A stretch of 62,660 bases of DNA, filler included, from Narcine bancroftii (taxonomy: Eukaryota), in the NCBI RefSeq assembly GCF_036971445.1. It is 2 parts of one record of this genome, joined end to end, with 100 filler letters (N's around TTAATTAATTAA, not from the genome) between each part and the next. Parts side by side here need not be neighbours in the genome. Positions count along the whole stretch, not along the records: positions 31,510 to 62,660 come from NC_091476.1; 1 more part is not named here. One strand, given 5' to 3'. The translations under genes were made by a program, and so were the position numbers. Positions 51,044 through 62,660 of this stretch are shown here, one piece after another (position 1 is the stretch's first letter; the number at the start of each line of letters is the position of its first letter). Under the pieces are notes generated by a model that made no database searches, was not told where the DNA came from, and saw only the letters and a list, made by a program, of their open reading frames with translations.

Positions 51044-52736
51044 TGATGTGATGCTGGAGAAAGTGGTAGAGGACAAGCCATTGTCATCTACACCATTGTC
51101 ATCTACTGTAGAGAATTGTTTGCTGTTAGAAACTTGCATGTTTGCAAATTATGTGTACAGCCATCAATGTTAGTAATTTAGTTTGTTTGATTTTTTTGAA
51201 TATTTTTGATTTTCATATTCATATAAATTCAAATACACAATGCAGTCTCTTCCAACACCAGTATGACATTGTTTTCATCACCTTCCTCAAATGGTGAGGC
51301 TGTCCAGTAATGAAATCTGGCAATTTTAACTCCCCCCTTCCCCCCATTTGTCATCCCAAGTCAATTTTTCCATGGAGATTCTAGCCACTGTTCCACAGGA
51401 ATTTACTGACAGATCTGCTGAGCATCTAAAAGAAGCCCTAGGGGAATGGAATGGGTAACAACTGAAATAGATATTGTAGCCTTCACATCACCTTAACACA
51501 GTTAACTGCCCATCAAAGTTATGGGAAGAGTTCTCCATCTACTGAGGTCCTCCAATCTTCTGGAGCAAAGGGAGATCGTTGTGTAAATCCAGGTCTACTT
51601 TTATCCCCAGATATTTAATGCTTCTTGCGGTCATTTGAATTGACTTCCCTGTTGATATTGTCTATATTCCCTTTGTCAGATTTACCTTGTACCCCGAGAC
51701 CTCATAAATCCTCCAGTGTGATCCTTGGCCTGACCGATGACCCTATGGTCCATCAAATATACTAACATATCATCTGTGAATAGGTTGATTTTATGTGGCT
51801 TGTTTGATTTGTTAATAATTTTTGATTTTGTAATCAAAATGGCAGCACAGTTAGAGCAATGCTGTTACAGCGCCAGCAACTGGAGTTTGAATCTGGTGCT
51901 GTATGTAAGGAGTTTGTATGTTCTCCCCATATCTTTGTGGGTTTCCTCCAGGTGCTTTGGTTCCCTTCAAAGCATATTGAGTTGTAGGTCAATTGGGTGT
52001 AATTGCATGGCTAGAAGGCTAAAATGGCTGTATGTTGAAATTAAATCTGTTACCCTTCTGACCTTACAGCTGTTTTGTACCAACCCTGATTGGCCAATGA
52101 CTCATAAGATCTCATGTGGCCTTCCATAATATTTTCAGGGAGTTCCAGCAGATGACCCAGAGGTAACAAAGAATGGAAATTATACTTGGTAGACAAACAG
52201 TTTTGTAGAGCAAAATTTGTCCCCCCCACTCTTAAGATGTAGGATTATGTCGAATCTGTTGGGCCCACAGATTCTGCTGCGCTATTCCAATCAGTGTATT
52301 TTTCTCCTCATAACTTTTGATACCCATGTTAACCAAGAACCTATCAACTTCTCCCTTAAATACCATGGCCTTCTGAGGCATTGAATTCTACAGATTCTCC
52401 ATCTGCTGGCTGTTGAAATTTTACATCTATTCTAAAGGAATCTTTATTTTGAGTATGTGCCCTCTGGTCTGAAACTTTCCCACTCCTGGAAAATTTCTTC
52501 ACACTATCCAACCGTTTCAATTCAGCTATCTAAAAAAGCTTCTGTTTTAATAGTGGTTGATTCAGTGGTTCATATTTATTACCAAGTGGAGCACCATTTT
52601 TTATCTGTTTCATACCTTCTAAACCACCATGTATTCAAGATCTGATTTACATTTGAACCAAGGCTATGGCAGAGATTTTGATTTGTCACAATTGAGTGAT
52701 CGTGGGGTGAGTTTCTCACCAGGTTTGTTTTTGCAG

Positions 52737-52831
52737 GTATGATCAAGCTGGTGTGTAAACACAGAGCACAAGTTATCTATACACGAAACACCAAGGGAGG
52801 AGATGCACCAGCGGCTGCGGATGATGCATAA
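52737..52831 (+). CDS. RPS25: RPS25 exon 4
   Basis: [30 protein letters not shown] then TAA; total 375 nt = 124 aa + stop. Confidence 0.96.
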
Positions 52832-53352
52832 GCAGGTGACATGTTTGTCTTAATGGGCTATATTTTTCAGTTCATTTGTTTTAGTCTGAAGGCTGTTCTT
52901 GGGTTTGAGTTTCTCAGTGGTGATAGTTTTGTCTTGGGGTGGGGAATGTAAGAATCCTTTCTCCCCTTAGCAGTTAAGGTCTGTAGCCAGAATCACTTTG
53001 GGGATTCACTGGAAAGGTATCTAGGTGAAATAATTAAACTTCCCATGAAAATAACATTTAGGAAGGGTATTTATAGGGTATGATTGTGTGGCTACAGTTG
53101 GTTCCTCCTAGCAGAAATGTTCAAATCAGAGGTGGCTATACAAGATTTATTATTTCTTTGGAAATATACTTGGTCACTAAATATGAGGCACAGCCTAAAA
53201 GCCTTTATAGCTAAATGTCCATGGTAAGTAGGCAAGAGGCTGAATGCCAACTCTGCATTTAATTATCGGGTTTCCCCTTGTTACACTTGGAATAAAATTG
53301 GTCTAGGTTTTCTACTAAGTGAACCTGATTACTCTTGTGACTTCTTTTTCAG

Positions 53353-53425
53353 ATGCTGGGATGAATTACAAATGAAGATATTAGAAAGCTTAAAAAAAAT
53401 AAAGTGTAAATTTATTTGGCACATT
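53353..53425 (+). other. RPS25: RPS25 non-coding last exon with AATAAA (53398-53403)
   Basis: Donor CAG|GTGAC 4 nt after the stop (intron starts 52836); pyrimidine-rich acceptor CTTCTTTTTCAG ends 53352; 3' end approximate. Confidence 0.75.
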
Positions 53426-53924
53426 TTGAGTTGTGATTGAATTTATTCTTTGAGTGGGGAGGTTACTTTCCATTTGTATCAGTGCAACCTTTTTAAACCT
53501 CCCAGGGTCACCTTTAGTGCACGACCACATGCATTCAATGTAGAGGAGTTGTTTGCTTATTGGAACAATTTCTAATGCTGTTCGTTAATAAAATATTGTG
53601 TAGTGCAAATGCATAGGTAGAAATATTTGGGTATTAGTTCAAAACTATGCTGTATGCAGGGTGTCGGAGATGAACAGTAACCCTTTTAAATTTAAATATT
53701 AGTATTTGATTTTGTAAATTCAAAAGGGCTACACTTTCTCCTTTCAGCAATGAAGGAAATATATTCACAAGTTTGGGAGAAACTGTTCATGTATCCTAGT
53801 GTATATAACCCAAGCAAAGCAATAGGCTGTCAAAGTATTACATCAATTATTATAATTTAAGTATACATACAATTTAGTTAAGTTTACAAAAATTCACATT
53901 TCCAGTTTAAATACTTCAATTTTT

Positions 53925-53985
53925 CTACTGGTTATCTCTTTTCCGCTTTCTGTTTTTCTTGCCTTCCTCAAGCCGGAACTGGTGC
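53925..53985 (-). CDS. CENATAC: CENATAC exon 11 (last coding exon)
   Basis: HQFRLEEGKKNRKRKRDNQ then TAG; the 11 exons sum to 1029 nt (342 aa + stop). Confidence 0.9.
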
Positions 53986-54214
53986 CTATAAAATTAAAAA
54001 GAATCATAATTGGGGAATGAAGTAGTCGTCAAACATTCATTTCTATGTACATTAAAAAAAAGTATTGAAACAACCACTCAAAGCCAAACCTACGGAATGG
54101 CTTAGGTGAAAAAAAGTTTGTCCTTTTGGGAGAATGGGAAGAGATGACTAGTTGGGGGTTTAGTGAGGATCTTTCATATTTAAAAGGTAGGGCATAACCA
54201 CTGAGCAATCTTAC

Positions 54215-54347
54215 CTGGATTGCCACCTCCTGCCATCATTCCATACTCTGCCAAATGAAGGCAACCAGGAATCATCAGTTTCTGACAAGTGGTTGAAATT
54301 TGCACCAACTCTATTTGGAGGAAGTTTCTTCAGTTTCTCTCTCTCTC
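54215..54347 (-). CDS. CENATAC: CENATAC exon 10
   Basis: 133 nt; [14 protein letters not shown]...[18 protein letters not shown], the hallmark C-terminal motifs. Confidence 0.96.
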
Positions 54348-54607
54348 CTAAAAAAAATTGAAAAGTACCAGGGAAAGAACTGATGTCATTGACAAGTACA
54401 GAGAAAACACTTCCTTGCATCTATATTTACTCCAAGTGCTTCACAGAACTGATATTACAGACAAAATGTGAAATGCATTAAAAAGCTTTACAACAGGCAA
54501 TATAACAAAGGAGGAATTCAAGGTCTTGTGAAGCCAATGATATTGCAAACAAACTTGGTGCCCAGAATTAAAGGAAAAAGTTTTATGGCTGCAGAATACC
54601 CTTGAAT

Positions 54608-55592
54608 CAGGGTGGCCAAGCTATGGCCCTGGGCCAACTGCAGCCTATTTTTGTAGCCTGGGATGAATTTTAAAAATAAAATGGAATATGGTCTGTTAGA
54701 ACATAGATTAAAGGTTCTCAACCTTTTTCTTTCCACTCACATACCACTATGCCATCAGTGCTCTGATTAGAAAAGGATTGCTTGAAGGTTGAGAATCACT
54801 GCTCTAGACTCTTGTTACTGAAATATTTTGCTTGAGAAAAATTGTCATTAGCCCATTTCCTTTGGAGTTTTGGAACTGTGCACATAATGAGTCAATTAGG
54901 TACAATTAAAAGTGGTTTTCAAACTACCACCTTAAGCAATCCCTTACTAATCATGGAGCACCTTTGGCATGGGGAATACTTAGTGGTATGCAAGCAGAAA
55001 GAAAAAGGTTGAGAACCACTGATGTAGACAAAATAAACTGTACTTGGTTTCATCACTAGATGTCAGTGATTAAACAATTACTAGACTAACTTCTGCAATG
55101 TTAATCAATGGAAACAACCACAGTTGATTAAACATCGCAGAAGCGAAAAGACAAGGAGGGAAAATCAATATGCCGGCCCCAGAAGTCAAGGGGAATTGTT
55201 TTTGATTTATAAGGGACCTTAACTTAGCCTATCTATAAATTTATAGATCATAATCGTCAAGGTGGTATTCATTGAGAGTTGTGGAGAAAAGTTGGGAGAT
55301 TGCATTGAGCTTTTTTGATCTTTTCCCCTGTAATTTTGCACTGTATTTCGAGGAGAGTTTTACTGTAATAATATACATTTTAAGAGCAGAAATGCATATA
55401 CTGTAATGTGAACACATCAATAAACTACGATATGTCAACAGTTAAACCGTTCAGAAGCATTGTATAGTTATTTTGATAGCACAGGTTTCTGGTCTAAAAA
55501 CACTTTTTTGCAGTGTAATTGGTTGAAAATTGTCAGGGTTATATATTGTTTGACCCATTACTCCTTATTTTTCTATATGTGGCCCACCCCTG
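54608..55592. mobile_element. Non-autonomous hAT transposon with a nested hAT MITE (54709-55021)
   Basis: TIRs CAGGGTGGCC/GGCCCACCCCTG; perfect 8-bp TSD CCTTGAAT; nested element ends GGTTGAGAACCACTG with decayed TSD ACATAGAT/ATGTAGAC. Confidence 0.85.
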
Positions 55593-56079
55593 CCTTGAAT
55601 AATCTGAAAAGTTTTATTTTAAGAGTTGAGTGATTGGTGTTGCAGGACTTTACTGGTCTAATCTATATGCTTTAACAGTTAAAAATGCCATTAATCAAAT
55701 CCACAACTTTTTAAAAACTATATTGGCCAATTCAATTATCATCCAATATTTTTGCCTCGGTAACTGGTTACAAAATATTGAATCTGCAATTTGTTTTAAC
55801 ACCCAAGTTACTGAATTGCTGAGAACAAAAAAAACTGAACTTTCAAGTTGTTGCAGCATAGAAAGCTTATGCCCGCAACTCTAGAAAAATCTAGACAAGT
55901 TTCATTTCCCCTACAGGCCACAATTGACTTCAAATATTTATTGAAATCTTTTCATAACATCAGTAGTTAATTAGCAGTTCTCCATGACAATCTGGCACAA
56001 AAATAAATGCTGGTCTTGCTATTGCTGCTCAAATCACCAGAATTAAAAAAAGTGCTCAGTCAGAATGTCAAGCACATAC

Positions 56080-56169
56080 TTTGTTGGAGGAACTCTTCAT
56101 AAGAAGGTCCTATTGGTTTTGATGCAGTATCTGGATCCTCCTCATCAAGAAGCCAGGGTGGTATTGCAC
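56080..56169 (-). CDS. CENATAC: CENATAC exon 9
   Basis: 90 nt; AIPPWLLDEEDPDTASKPIGPSYEEFLQQ (human ATPPWM...IGPSYEEFLKE). Confidence 0.94.
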
Positions 56170-56766
56170 CTGAAGTCAGATGTAGAATACATTAATGTTC
56201 AATCACTAATGCAAGGTTTTAAATGGAATATGGTCATGCATAACAAAATCAGTTAAGTGGGTAGGGTAATTTGTATTTATGATATCCACAATTAATGAAT
56301 TAGCTGCTCACAGATAAAAGACATGGACTGTAGAGGATTAGTCGAACCATAAGAGGGAAGAAATTAGACAATTCCAAAAGAAAATAACCAAATAAAAAAA
56401 TATTTAGTTCTTAAAGAGTTAATTTACAAATTCAAGTCAACTCCATTTTACACACTGCAAATCAAAGAACTGCAATGTACAGCATGCTGATGGTGGGGGG
56501 TGGGGGAGTTGAAAAGGGGTGGTCAGGTAGCATTTGTTTCTCTTTACAGATGGACCTGGCCTGCTGAGTTATTTTTACTGTATTTTACAGTTTTAAAATA
56601 ATCACAGATGAGTAATAACCTGTTTAATAACTTGTCCTGCTTGGAAGTATTTGTTCACAGGCTATCACTATCCTCCCTGCAGATTATAATCATTTTTTTG
56701 ACCAAGTCGTTAAATTGTACCCTACAAGATTACAGAATATTAAAAATCAACAAAGTAAATAATCAC

Positions 56767-56800
56767 CTGTATGTATATTCCCAGCTTCTGATTTGGATAT
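56767..56800 (-). CDS. CENATAC: CENATAC exon 8
   Basis: 34 nt; ISKSEAGNIHTG (human GNIHSG motif); CAG/GT flanks. Confidence 0.88.
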
Positions 56801-58628
56801 CTGGAACTAAAAAGTCAACAAAACATTAGGTGAAAGTTCTAAACTAAACTAACATAGCTATAACTTGAAAATTTATGAAACTTTGAGTTTATTCCAAATC
56901 AATAAATAGCAAAAACATTCATAAATTTATATGGATAATAGAGGTATTAGTTTTCAAATCCACATGACCACACTTCAAAAGTCGGTTACATTTATATTCA
57001 CTCACTCCACATCAAATGCAATTTGTGAAGATTTTCAACACTCAAAATTGCTGACCAAAATTAATTCGCAAAAGTCTAAAAATGTTCCTTTCCTTTAAAG
57101 AGAATTGTTGATCTATTTATTTTCAGAAATACAACTTTAAACTGGAGTAATTTTCCACAAACATTTTTAAAAGCCAGAAAATAATTGGTTTATGCTTAGG
57201 ATTGGAATGCTGATAACAGAACAATCAAGAGCAGTATATTTGATCATTAGGGCTTGTTCTGCCATTCATCAAGATCATGGCCAATCTTCTACCCAATTGC
57301 TATTTGTTTTATTATCTTCTCATCCTTGGATTTCCTTAATATCCAGAACTACATTCATTTCTGCTATGAATAAATGCAATGACTAAGCCTCCACAGCCCT
57401 GTGTTGGATAATTCCAAACATTCAACAATCTTTGAATTTAAATTAAATTTAGACATACAGTATGATAACAAGCCCTTCTGGCTCAAGAGCCCATGCCGCC
57501 CAAATATCCCAATTAATCTATAACCCTTTAAGTTTCTGAAGAGTGGGAGGCAACCTATGCAAACAGAACATACAAACTCCTTAGAGAGCACCAGATTGGA
57601 ACTTGGGTCTCTGGAGCTGCAAGTCATGCTAACCGACCGAGCTGCCCTCTTAGCTAACAGCACGTTCCTTATAATCTTTGATTTTAAATTCCTTAACCAG
57701 AGGAAACATCCTCCCTGTATCGTGCCCATTGAAACTTAACATTTTTCCAGAGCTCAACAAAATGTACAATAAATCTCATTCCAATAAACACTACAGGATA
57801 TACACCAGTCTACCTCATCTCTTCCAATTATGTTATTCCTGAAATGCATTTACAGAATCTTCACAGCACTTCTCTGGCAAACACCCTTTTTACACAAGGT
57901 CAAAAGTACACAATACTTAATGTAATTTCAACAAGAACCCATATAATAAGGACCAATATACCATTTACCTTCCTAATCACCTACTACATCTGGATGATGT
58001 TTTCAATGACTCATCCACTACCACATCTTGCTCAATCTCTCACCATGTGAATACTCCTTTCTCCCCAACCATCCCACCCCCTTCCCTCACCCCCCATATT
58101 AAACTGTATGAGCATCTTCCTGGTTTTCAGCACCCCAAGAAGGATTCAGGCCTTTTGCTGTCGATGGATGCTACATGACCTCCTGAATTTCTTTTGAGGA
58201 CTACGTGTACTGTATTTTCATACAACCTTCCAATTCAAGTGGGCTCATTGGCAAAAACCAGCGAGCTGGCACAACATTGTATTCCTTATTCCCTTGAAAT
58301 AATCATCTTTGAAAGCCAAGAACATCAAGAATGGGTTGCAAATTTCCCTTCAATCCCAGTGTAAATGAGTAATTCACTTCCACTGTCCAATGGAATTGAA
58401 TTAGGTATAGCAACTTTGGCCACAGTACAGTTTATATTTAATATCTATAAGTGCTAGAAAACTCAGCAGGTCCTGCAGCATCCATAGGAGGCAAAGATAC
58501 ACTGTACAACCAACATTTTGGGCCTCAGCCCTTCATCAAGATTATATCAGTGTATTTGATGGTGAAATACTACACTGTCTACGAAGTATTAGCACTTGGT
58601 TGAAATTTACTGCATGCGGGCACATCAC

Positions 58629-58740
58629 CTGGTTACCAATGAAAGTCAAGGTCTGTCCATTTGTCATATTGCCAGAATGACCAGTGTAATTCACTCCACT
58701 TGACCCAGGTTCCATTGCTTCAGCGTTGTTGCTTCCGAGA
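58629..58740 (-). CDS. CENATAC: CENATAC exon 7
   Basis: 112 nt; ends NGQTLTFIGNQ (human GPSLTFIGHQ). Confidence 0.9.
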
Positions 58741-59746
58741 CTTGCAAAGAAATAAATATATTCTGTAAAATATGCTATTCTCTTTTCCTTAACTGAGATT
58801 AATAATTTTGGGGGAGTGGGAAGCATTTATACATACTTGCAGCAGTACCAGGCTATTAGGCCTAAGCTTGACTGCTATGGGCAATCAATATCAGCAAATG
58901 AAAGAAATCAAGAATCTATCAGAACATTTTTATTTTCACCACTTCTATCAACCCTCTGGAATTAACTACCAGATCACTAAGTATTCTCAGCAGCCTTTTT
59001 CATGCTAAAGTTGATTTTAAAAAAGTTTGCTGCATAGTTCCTTTCCCAAGAGCTTTCATCCCCCACTGATATAAGTTTTCCTTCTGCTCTGATAATCTAG
59101 ATGTGCCTTTGTTGGGACAAGAGGATCACAACAGTGAATGAAGATCATTTTTAATATCATGAGTCTTTAAAGTTCAGGTAATAGGGAAACTGGTACTCCC
59201 AAGACTATACAAGGAATATAGCAACACAATCAGACCATTTCTCTCATTAAGCCTCTTCCATCATGGATAACTTGTGACTGAACATCAGAATACCAATCTT
59301 TGTCCCCATCTCAGATTCTGATTGATCAAATGTTATCAGTTCAAAAGCAAGTTTAGGGAGGAATTCCATCCCAGAAGATTCTCCAGGCACTATAAATAAT
59401 CTGGGATGATTGTCAAATTTAGGATTAAACCAATTACGCTTGATTTATATTACTACATCACAGCCAGCAATCATCCAACATGTTAATGTCATCCCAGACA
59501 GGAAGAATCTTTACGTTTGAGTTTTGATTATCAGCAAATAGTTGAAAGGAGAACGCTACACCAGAGATCCCGAACCCGTTCTTCTTCATTTTATACTTTC
59601 TCAAAATGGGTGATCAGGAGTGAGACCTTTCTTTTTTTTTAAATCGTTCCAAAGCCATTTGTTGTTTTTGATGAAAACTGCTCACAGGCAGAAGTCTGTG
59701 ACAATTTAAACAGTTCTATAAGAAAACAAAAGCAAAATATTCTTAC

Positions 59747-59808
59747 CCATCATAATGATTGGCTGCTAACACTGGGAGTCCATCGAGAGAATTCGGCTCT
59801 GTCTGTGG
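59747..59808 (-). CDS. CENATAC: CENATAC exon 6
   Basis: 62 nt, CAG/GTAAG; PQTEPNSLDGLPVLAANHYD (human exon starts PQAVPDP); phases fit exons 5 and 7. Confidence 0.8.
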
Positions 59809-60192
59809 CTGGTTTTGATTCAGGAAAAATCAATATTTCTTCTTACAGCTTAAAATACTATGTTAAGATGACTACTACACGAGAGAAGGTTAATAAACCA
59901 AATTTTGGATCTGCAAAATACTCTGCAGATTTCATGCATTCACAATAGCGGTCTACATAATTAATATTTTGTTTAATTGTCCCAGATTAGAACAATCTTT
60001 GAGATTAATTCACCACACATTCTACATTACGTGAACACTCCTTGCACTGTGTAGATATCAACCTTGTTGCTAGGAATTCATTCTCAATTGCATTGTCAGA
60101 TTTAGGACTGGACACATCAGCCCCTTTCATGCATACCAGACAGTCCAATGGTCCAACTGAGAGACATTTGCAACACAAAGATGTAAATACAG

Positions 60193-61040
60193 CAGGGGTT
60201 GCCAAACTACGGCCCATTGCCCATTTTTAAGTGGCCCAGGATGAATTTTAAAAAATAAAATGGAAAATGGCTCATTAGAAATAGTCTTTAACAATAAACT
60301 GCACTGCATGTACACTGCACTTAGTTTCAACACTAGATGTTGCTGCCATTTTGAACAACTACTAGACTGACCATTACAATGTTATTCATCAATAAAAATG
60401 TTTCCCTCAGTTGATTAAACATGGCAGAACTAAAAAAAACAGAAAATAGCAAGGGAGTGCCAAGAATTTCAGACACAGTAGAAAAATAAATGTGTTTGAC
60501 TTGCAAGGAATCTGTTAACTTTAATAGCTTATCTTCAACAGCTAACTACAGATTTACACATTGTATCATAATCATTAAGGTGGACACTTGGGACTATAAA
60601 ATATATTCAATGAGAGTTTTGGAGGGATGTTGGAAACTGCCTTGTCCCTTGTTCTTTTTTTTGTGGTCTTATTTTGCACCCAGCCTTTTATTTTGCCTTG
60701 CTTTTTGAATGAGTTTTAAAAAGTATTCATTTAAATTAAAAATCAATACAGAAATATATGAACCTATCAATAAACTTTTGTGATATCAACAGTTAAACTG
60801 TTCAGTAGTGTTGCAAGTTATTTTGACAGAAAATTAATTTTCAATGGCACTGGGGTTTTCTGGTCTAAGAACAGTTTTTCTTACAATGTAACTGGTTGAA
60901 AACTGCCAGGCTTGATATAATTTGGCTCGAGACTTCTTATATTTTTCTTTGTGACCCACAACCAAAAAAGGTTTGGCCACCCCTGATGTAAACCCTCCAC
61001 TCTTTGTGACCCACAACCAAAAAAGGTTTGGCCACCCCTG
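60193..61040. mobile_element. Second copy of the same hAT family; right end duplicated by a 55-bp tandem repeat (60946-61055)
   Basis: CAGGGGTTGCCAAAC...GTTTGGCCACCCCTG; interior similar to 54608-55592. Confidence 0.8.
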
Positions 61041-62512
61041 ATGTAAACCCTCCACTCTTAAATGCAAAAAAAGTCTAAACTCCTACTTGAAATGTGTAAC
61101 AAATGAAATGCAAATCCAAGGCAATTTGGGTCAGGTATTTAGAATCATATAATCAATAGTAAATTCAGGGCAGTAGATTGGCAGCCAAAAACAATCAATT
61201 TTGCATTGTTTCCCCAAACTTAAAAACTTGTGTTTCAATGCAAGACCTTAGCAAATATTTATATTTTATGATGACCAATTGCAACAAGTATAATGTTATT
61301 TTTATGGATTACTATAGTTATATCACTAGGTCTTTCTTTATGTAACAGAGAGGACATGCATTATACTGTTCCAAACACCATACAAAAAAAAACTGACGGA
61401 AAACACAATGTCTATAAAGTTTGATCAACATCTAAATACATTTGTTTAAAAAAAACAGGTAGACTGATCTGTGTAACAACTCTCAAAAATGTAGATTTGG
61501 AATCAACCTTCTAGCTGTAATGAAGGATATTGTTTCAGTAACTACTCTGCTATTGTTAAATCTCTCTTATTTCAACCAATCCATTTTCATTGTGCTTAAT
61601 GCGATGAATCCTAAATACAATCAATTCAGGATGCTTGATTTTGAAACCAAAGGCGAAAACTTGGAACAACCAGTATAGAAGAACGAAACATCATTTGCAA
61701 ATTTTCTTGATCAAATGTACACAGATAGGATGGAATCCATACAAACTGCAAACACATTTAAGGTAAATTGTCCCAATGCACAGGGGCCATCTGTTTGAAA
61801 TCCATTTCGCTTTGCGTTTCCTACAAACTTATGCGGGATGAAGTATTGTATGGATGATAGCCATTGTATTAAGAAGAGAAAAAAAAATCAAAAGATAGCA
61901 ATTAGAGGAAACCAAAGTATTTTTTAAAAAAAAAGCAATTTAGCTGTTAAGAGTTTCCCTTCTTCCTGGAGATTTTTCCTTAAACATTTGCTCTATCTTT
62001 GTCCAACTTTGTGGGTTTTTTTTCTGGTAGTTGAGACATCAGGTCAGAATCATCTCAGTTTGGTGGGAATAGAGTGCAGAACATTGTCACTTTAGATTTT
62101 CAGTTCCATGTGGCAGGATAGATCCCACAGTACTGTCTCACCCAAGTAGGTAAATTCTGTAATAGTTCCCTAGTGGAGCAGTGCCATGTCAAATCAAACC
62201 TTGCCCTCACATAACATCAAGATACGAGAAATTCGAGGTAGGAGCATGGGTGGACAGCAATAATCTCAGTTCCTTGGGCTTTATGCTGAACCCTTCATGA
62301 CCTCAGGAGGTCAACTTCACTGATGCCCCAAGGAAGAAGAGTTAAAATAGCACTTGGACTCAAACATACTACATCTTACAGCTCAACTCCACACTAACAT
62401 CGCTGATAAACAATTTAGGTCTGTCAGGATCATTGTATAATTTATAGATCAATTGATATAAAATACGACAGTTGCCATGGATACGGTTCAGGGTCATCCA
62501 GGTAAAACCAAC

Positions 62513-62575
62513 CTCAACGGCAGCCTGCACCACCTCTTGCCTTCTCCGATCCATTTCTCGAAAGAATTCTGCCTC
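62513..62575 (-). CDS. CENATAC: CENATAC exon 5
   Basis: 63 nt, TAG/GTTGGT; EAEFFREMDRRRQEVVQAAVE (human [21 protein letters not shown]); phase-compatible with exon 4. Confidence 0.9.
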
Positions 62576-62660
62576 CTATAAAAATGTAGGAAATGACAAA
62601 GGTGTAAAACTCAAGAGACTAGAATAGAAAAAAATGTCCCAATTTGCAAGCCGTTACACA

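What the first reader, a model, noticed from the sequence alone, without database searches (positions are those of the whole stretch)
62477..62512. Competing U12-like 5' splice site 28 nt after the CENATAC exon 5 donor: candidate minor-spliceosome autoregulatory switch
Seen: the major donor is weak (GAG|GTTGGT), and 28 nt downstream is CC|GTATCCAT, one mismatch from the U12 consensus GTATCCTT. Using it adds 28 nt, shifts the frame and creates a TGA at 59752-59750 in exon 6, upstream of five more junctions, which is an NMD configuration. Established: CENATAC is a minor-spliceosome component, and SNRNP48 and RNPC3 use U11-site feedback. As I recall, competing minor and major donors have also been reported for animal CENATAC. 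Inference: this is the local form of such a feedback circuit, possibly with a GT-type rather than AT-type site.
Basis: partly seen in the sequence, partly recalled or inferred. Interest (0 to 1): 0.75.

Follow-up and report, generated by a model that had tools for sequence, protein, structure and literature searches.

The report
Known CENATAC minor-splice switch in ray
This electric-ray gene for the minor-spliceosome protein CENATAC carries the same pair of competing splice donors, 28 bases apart, already published for the human gene, where the minor-type donor gives a stop-codon message that likely lets the minor spliceosome turn down its own component, so the element is real and old but not new.

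Summary
Confirmed, and already known. GTATCCAT lies at 62484-62477 (minus strand), 28 nt after the major donor; its use gives TGA at 59752-59750. The gene is CENATAC; its exon product equals the Narcine bancroftii protein. Human intron 5 has the same 28-nt offset and is also GT-AG. A bamboo-shark read-through protein keeps the spacer (21 of 33 residues). In 4 of 4 runs the major joint is seen. The minor joint is not among the 15 printed (59 hidden), but in 3 of 4 runs intron contigs begin at 62514, as a branch at the U12 donor predicts. The switch is described in PMC6800510, PMC8280824, PMC8329584 and PMC10853781. Decay and feedback are inferred here, not shown. The scan's index held no earlier CENATAC note. 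Side lead: an apparently unused second, AT-type U12 cassette at 61631-61523.

The parts
62513..62575 (-). CENATAC exon 5 (63 nt, 21 codons)
   Evidence: 3' end seen in the RNA joint
62507..62515 (-). Major (U2) donor GAG|GTTGGT; productive, in frame
   Evidence: joint 62513-59808 in 4 of 4 runs; V-G-F read-through in shark and mammals implies a conserved GTN GGN TTY start
62485..62512 (-). 28-nt spacer included when the minor donor is used; shifts the frame
   Evidence: same 28-nt offset in human; nine-codon spacer in 23 stored proteins
62477..62484 (-). Minor (U12, G-type) donor GTATCCAT
   Evidence: first 7 nt equal to the human donor; contig starts at 62514 in 3 of 4 runs fit a branch here
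62414..62512 (-). Conserved first 99 nt of intron 5
   Evidence: conceptual translation 21 of 33 identical, no gaps, to the read-through tail of Chiloscyllium P0121
59818..59826 (-). U12-type branch site TTCCTGAAT, ending 9 nt before the intron end
   Evidence: identical to the human bp_seq
59809..59830 (-). Shared 3' end of intron 5, no pyrimidine tract next to the AG
   Evidence: 20 of 22 nt identical to human; 0 of 100 shuffles match
59747..59808 (-). Exon 6 (62 nt)
   Evidence: both joints seen in 4 of 4 runs
59750..59752 (-). Premature TGA in the minor-spliced form
53925..58740 (-). Exons 7-11 (58740-58629, 56806-56767, 56169-56080, 54347-54215, 53985-stop 53925); their junctions supply the downstream marks for NMD
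   Evidence: junctions 9/10 and 10/11 rest on the protein match, not on printed joints

Best explanation
This is the electric-ray copy of the published CENATAC intron-5 switch: two donors 28 nt apart face one acceptor, the major donor is joined in frame, and the minor (U12, GT-type) donor, likely also used here, adds 28 nt and a premature stop that is predicted to make the message unproductive, so that high minor-spliceosome activity would lower CENATAC and low activity would raise it. Shown here: both donors, the U12 branch site, the frameshift and stop, use of the major donor, conservation to shark and human. Indirect: use of the minor donor (contig boundary). Inferred: removal by the minor spliceosome in this species, decay by NMD, and the feedback. 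The pyrimidine-rich branch site likely doubles as the pyrimidine tract for the major pathway, as PMC8329584 suggests. Both donors are off consensus in ray and human alike (A at +7 of the minor donor), which likely keeps them balanced.
For: Same 28-nt offset in human (118881993 vs 118882021). Same first 7 donor bases and same branch site; 3' end 20 of 22 identical. Shark read-through S-I-H after nine codons fits xGT ATC CAy at +28 (inferred from protein). 16 of the 23 stored proteins with the spacer continue as the +28-spliced form (human, apes, monkeys, rat, sheep, beaver, unnamed Logan entries), 7 as retention. Contigs of X1, X2, X3 start at 62514; the k=31 simulation gives 62542 with the major joint alone and 62514 with the minor joint added; the same rule reproduces 59781, 59776, 58712, 56779 and 61001. 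In human cells the U12 share falls from about 0.62 to 0.14 with U4atac mutation, CENATAC mRNA rises, and retention of this intron rises on CENATAC depletion (0.15 to 0.35-0.36, padj 5e-4 and 1.5e-4).
Against: The minor joint itself is not among the 15 joints printed (59 hidden); X4 shows no informative piece; all four runs are one study and are only guessed to be RNA. A variant letter at 62515 would give the same contig start, though none is listed there (table 3). In human the tag alone already raised retention to 0.28, and the change was not significant in MVA patient cells (padj 0.66) or ZRSR2-mutant MDS (padj 0.99). The U12 form makes up about 62-65% of reads in human controls, high for an NMD target; the review says only 'possibly' NMD, and 'NMD' has 0 hits in the main text of PMC8280824. 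CENATAC acts mainly on A-type introns, so a G-type site senses it only partly.
Confidence: 0.85

Rival explanations
1. Same switch, other outcome: the minor-spliced message largely escapes NMD and is held in the nucleus, or makes a shortened protein with only the N-terminal half that could compete with full-length CENATAC.
For: U12 form is about 62-65% of reads in human controls. Truncated forms are annotated in human, apes and rat and appear in Logan contigs, one in 102 contigs. In ray, 35-53% of the depth leaving exon 6 is not matched by the major joint plus retention, a crude figure. Nuclear retention is the outcome in RNPC3.
Against: Four junctions lie more than 55 nt past the stop. The frameshifted tails of ray and mammals differ after the spacer. 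Contig depth is a poor measure, and exon skipping from outside the window could fill the gap.
Confidence: 0.1
2. The U11 site works mainly by binding, as in SNRNP48 and RNPC3: U11/U12 sits 28 nt from the major donor, blocks U1 and causes intron retention, without being spliced in this species.
For: Retained-intron contigs exist in all four runs (depth about 4-29 against 76-142 for the major joint); retention gives a stop at 62371; about 99 nt of intron start are conserved with shark.
Against: Single site, not a tandem pair; matching branch site present; contig break at the donor in 3 of 4 runs; the human site is spliced.
Confidence: 0.03
3. A neutral remnant of a minor-to-major intron conversion, or a chance motif.
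For: The motif alone has about a 4% chance; nested introns have been proposed as conversion intermediates.
Against: Offset, donor and branch site are kept between ray and human, and the intron start is as conserved as exons 6-7 between ray and sharks (21 of 33 against 33-37 of 58 in three sharks).
Confidence: 0.02

Closest known systems
Human CCDC84/CENATAC intron 5 U2/U12 donor switch (Cologne 2019 PMC6800510; de Wolf 2021 PMC8280824; Akinyi and Frilander 2021 PMC8329584; PMC10853781)
   Same: Same gene and intron, upstream major donor, minor donor 28 nt downstream, GT-AG type, donor GTATCCA, branch site TTCCTGAAT, shared acceptor, frameshift to a premature stop.
   Different: Intron is 2704 nt against about 655 in human; +8 is T (one base nearer consensus); spacer sequence and frameshifted tail differ; a second AT-type U12-like cassette lies inside the ray intron. 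No perturbation data for the ray.
Arabidopsis TITAN LIKE (TTL) feedback (bioRxiv 10.1101/2025.02.25.639993)
   Same: CENATAC-family gene whose minor splicing gives the unproductive message.
   Different: AT-AC intron inside a coding exon, retained versus spliced; no competing donors.
SNRNP48 (48K) and RNPC3 (65K) USSE circuits
   Same: Minor-spliceosome component turned down through a U12-type 5' site in its own pre-mRNA.
   Different: There the sites are bound, not spliced, and activate an upstream major acceptor; here a single site is a donor with its own branch site.
Twintrons / nested U2-U12 introns (prospero, SRSF10, NCBP2)
   Same: Two spliceosomes compete for one intron and set the protein output.
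   Different: Those mostly have separate sites at both ends; here the acceptor is shared.

Membership tests
CENATAC intron-5 U2/U12 switch | Gene is a CENATAC/CCDC84 orthologue | tested here: met
   PF14968 E 2.6e-21 on exon 10; 186-aa product of exons 5-11 is the exact C-terminal part of Narcine bancroftii CENATAC
CENATAC intron-5 U2/U12 switch | Minor donor 28 nt downstream of the major donor at the orthologous junction | tested here: met
   E before the junction in 97 of 102 aligned homologues; spacer
CENATAC intron-5 U2/U12 switch | Shared acceptor with U12 branch site | tested here: met
   (sequence); major joint to this acceptor in 4 of 4 runs
CENATAC intron-5 U2/U12 switch | Major form in frame, minor form with premature stop | tested here: met
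CENATAC intron-5 U2/U12 switch | Minor donor is used in RNA | tested here: inconclusive
   joint not among 15 printed of 74; contig start at 62514 in 3 of 4 runs fits its use; a variant at 62515 is the unlisted alternative
CENATAC intron-5 U2/U12 switch | Balance shifts to the major donor when the minor spliceosome is impaired | not testable with these tools
   shown for human only
U12-type (minor) intron, G subtype | RTATCCTT-like donor | tested here: met
   7 of 8 positions; the human site with 6 of 8 is scored 0.82 and listed as U12. No PWM was run here.
U12-type (minor) intron, G subtype | Removal by U11/U12/U4atac/U6atac | not testable with these tools
   needs snRNA blockade
NMD target | Stop more than 50-55 nt before a downstream junction (rule recalled) | tested here: met
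   4 of 5 downstream junctions
NMD target | Stabilised by UPF1/SMG1 inhibition | not testable with these tools
   no such run among the 4 listed
USSE (SNRNP48/RNPC3) | U12-type 5' sites that are bound but not spliced and activate an upstream U2 acceptor; tandem layout recalled | tested here: not met
   single site near the donor, with branch site and signs of use; not filed under this family

The most novel reading that the evidence does not exclude
The ray intron holds a second, AT-type sensor: a U12-like branch site and AG (61631-61611), an 80-nt poison segment (61610-61531) and a perfect ATATCCTT donor (61530). Because CENATAC acts mainly on AT-type introns, this would give an animal CENATAC gene a feedback sensor tuned to CENATAC itself, as in plants, on top of the known GT-type switch.
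Probability: 0.04. Interest if true: 0.55.

Novelty: already known. Interest (0 to 1): 0.14.

Why it matters
It shows that a published human feedback element is kept almost letter for letter in a cartilaginous fish, with indirect RNA support, which argues for selection over a conversion remnant. It adds a distant natural variant for minigene work. It does not change what is known: conservation in animals is already claimed in PMC8280824, whose alignment figure (Appendix Fig S9A) I could not see and which may include such fishes.

Tried and rejected
No genome is held for this window, so no DNA alignment across species was made; conservation rests on proteins and on paper supplements. Run search: no RNA holder listed on record; four runs guessed as RNA, one study. 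Rfam on 52000-62660: 0 matches. Fold of 62575-62440: z -0.07, no special structure. Protein search with the intron read-through as query: 1 hit among 2 candidates, uninformative. Scan index: no CENATAC note by words, none by sequence or place. A variant at 62484 also gives a contig start at 62514 but by the k-mer rule would end it near 62454, while the contigs run 550-892 nt: rejected. The second AT-type donor at 61530: pieces of X1 (61001-61924) and X2 (61001-61781) cross it unbroken, X3's end at 61624 fits no predicted break; contigs drop rare forms, so this shows no use, not absence. 'GT instead of AT as a local variant' rejected. No U12 PWM or MaxEnt score was run; the weakness of the major donor is judged by eye against the other five donors. 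Depth balance at exon 6 was kept only as a weak hint. Appendix PDF of PMC8280824 too large to read; supplement 4 of PMC6800510 not searched; bioRxiv supplements not seen.

Full report
Observation. On the minus strand exon 5 ends at 62513 (GAG|GTTGGT) and GTATCCAT stands at 62484-62477, 28 nt on. Joining 62485 to exon 6 (59808) gives a 49-codon frame from the exon start that ends in TGA at 59752-59750; the later junctions lie 3, 115, 155, 245 and 378 nt beyond it. The motif alone is not rare: 100 sites within one mismatch of RTATCCTT in the window, about 4% within 50 nt.

Gene. Exon 10 matches Pfam CCDC84 (E 2.6e-21; exon 9 weakly; exon 5 not at all). The best hits are rays and sharks, and the 186-residue product of exons 5-11 is exactly the C-terminal part of Narcine bancroftii CENATAC, so the window is from this electric ray or a very near relative.

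The intron ends in TTCCTGAAT, then nine bases to the AG, with no pyrimidine tract beside it. That is a U12-type 3' end (consensus recalled). In 20000 Markov resamples the donor core appeared in 305, the branch site in 42, both in 0.

Comparison with human. A supplement of PMC8280824 lists CCDC84 among U12 G-type introns, GT_AG, donor beginning GTATCCA, branch site TTCCTGAAT, scores 0.82 and 0.87. Its last 22 nt match 59830-59809 with two mismatches, the only match in the window, 0 of 100 shuffles. A supplement of PMC6800510 gives the two human donors at 118881993 and 118882021, 28 nt apart, with the U12 share 0.62 in controls and 0.14 in U4atac-mutant fibroblasts.

Other species. A search for short CENATAC forms returned 8 proteins among 37 candidates; cluster look-up added members. 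Of 155 stored proteins 23 read past the junction with V-G-F and a nine-codon spacer; 16 then continue as the +28-spliced form and 7 as retention, with S-I-Q or S-I-H, the translation expected of xGT ATC CA. The bamboo-shark entry (a partial gene model) matches the ray intron start at 21 of 33 residues without gaps, level with exons 6-7 against three sharks (33-37 of 58; chimaera 23 of 58). The 22 others are mammalian or unnamed and many are close kin, so they count as few independent cases. No bony fish, amphibian or bird form turned up; I have no data for them.

RNA. Four runs of one study, kept as contigs and only guessed to be RNA, hold the stretch; exact exon joints show spliced RNA is in them. 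The major joint is in 4 of 4 (depth 94, 92, 142, 76). The minor joint is not among the 15 joints printed; 59 are hidden. But retained-intron pieces of X1, X2 and X3 begin at exactly 62514. A 31-mer graph of pre-mRNA plus major form breaks at 62542; adding the minor form adds a break at 62514; only cuts at 62487-62485 do so, which give one and the same joint, and only 62485 is followed by GT. The model also reproduces the listed ends 59781 (4 runs), 58712 (4), 59776 (3), 61001 (3) and 56779 (1). X4's listed piece stops at 62372 and says nothing. Only 32 pieces were printed, 12383 hidden. I take this as good indirect evidence of use, not proof.

Mechanism. U1 and U11 compete over 28 nt for one acceptor. 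Major splicing gives full-length protein. Minor splicing gives a stop; decay is inferred from the junction rule. Lower minor-spliceosome activity should shift use to the major donor and raise CENATAC, as seen in TALS cells. Against a tidy loop: the U12 form is the majority in human controls; CENATAC depletion raised retention of this intron only to 0.35-0.36 from 0.15 (0.28 with the tag alone), with no significant change in MVA or ZRSR2-mutant samples; CENATAC mainly serves A-type introns. The site is probably a gauge of general minor-spliceosome activity more than of CENATAC alone (inference).

Literature. PMC6800510: passages and supplement rows. PMC8280824: passages, supplement rows and list; its Appendix Fig S9A was too large to read and may already show cartilaginous fishes. 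Its preprint: one passage. PMC8329584: passages and part 1 of section 7. PMC10853781: passages calling the acceptor dual-type. TTL preprint: passages. PMC11874965, PMC11347168, PMC10228655: passages, nothing on this intron. Four searches listed no paper on a ray or shark copy by title or abstract, and none with a direct NMD test; the library lacks most subscription journals.

Verdict. Real, orthologous to a published element, already known; interest 0.14. The one open lead is the second cassette at 61631-61523: the only such combination in the window, 16 of 5000 resamples of the intron, criteria chosen after seeing it, poison in either frame, no sign of use in two runs, conservation untested.

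Noticed in passing
window 61631-61523 (-): Second U12-like cassette inside intron 5: branch-like TCCTGAAT, AG at 61612-61611, 80-nt segment, perfect ATATCCTT donor at 61530; stop in either frame; 16 of 5000 resamples (post hoc); contigs of X1 and X2 cross it unbroken.
   Followed up: partly
window 53420-54719: One contig of depth about 1330 in X1 (600-1900 in the others, in pieces) runs unspliced over CENATAC exons 10-11, intron 10 and part of intron 9, far above CENATAC joint depth. Likely read-through or a long 3' end of the convergent plus-strand neighbour, which I read by eye as RPS25 (name recalled, not tested); strand unknown. It would be an antisense overlap of over 1 kb.
   Followed up: no
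window 62414-62484 (-): Conservation with bamboo shark runs about 70 nt past the minor donor, more than the donor needs; may hold a splicing-factor site.
   Followed up: partly
window 56806-56801 (-): Tandem acceptors six bases apart before exon 8; RNA joints use the upstream one, adding F-Q, as in the ray and shark proteins.
   Followed up: yes
window 61059-60946 (-): Tandem duplication of about 56 nt in intron 5 at the edge of a repeat that resembles one in intron 9.
   Followed up: no
window 59808-59747: 35-53% of the depth leaving exon 6 is not matched by the major joint plus retention: minor joint, exon-5 skipping from outside the window, or noise.
   Followed up: partly
window 54656-55030: Very high-copy element with inverted ends in intron 9 (depth above 50000); it crowded the joint table.
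   Followed up: no
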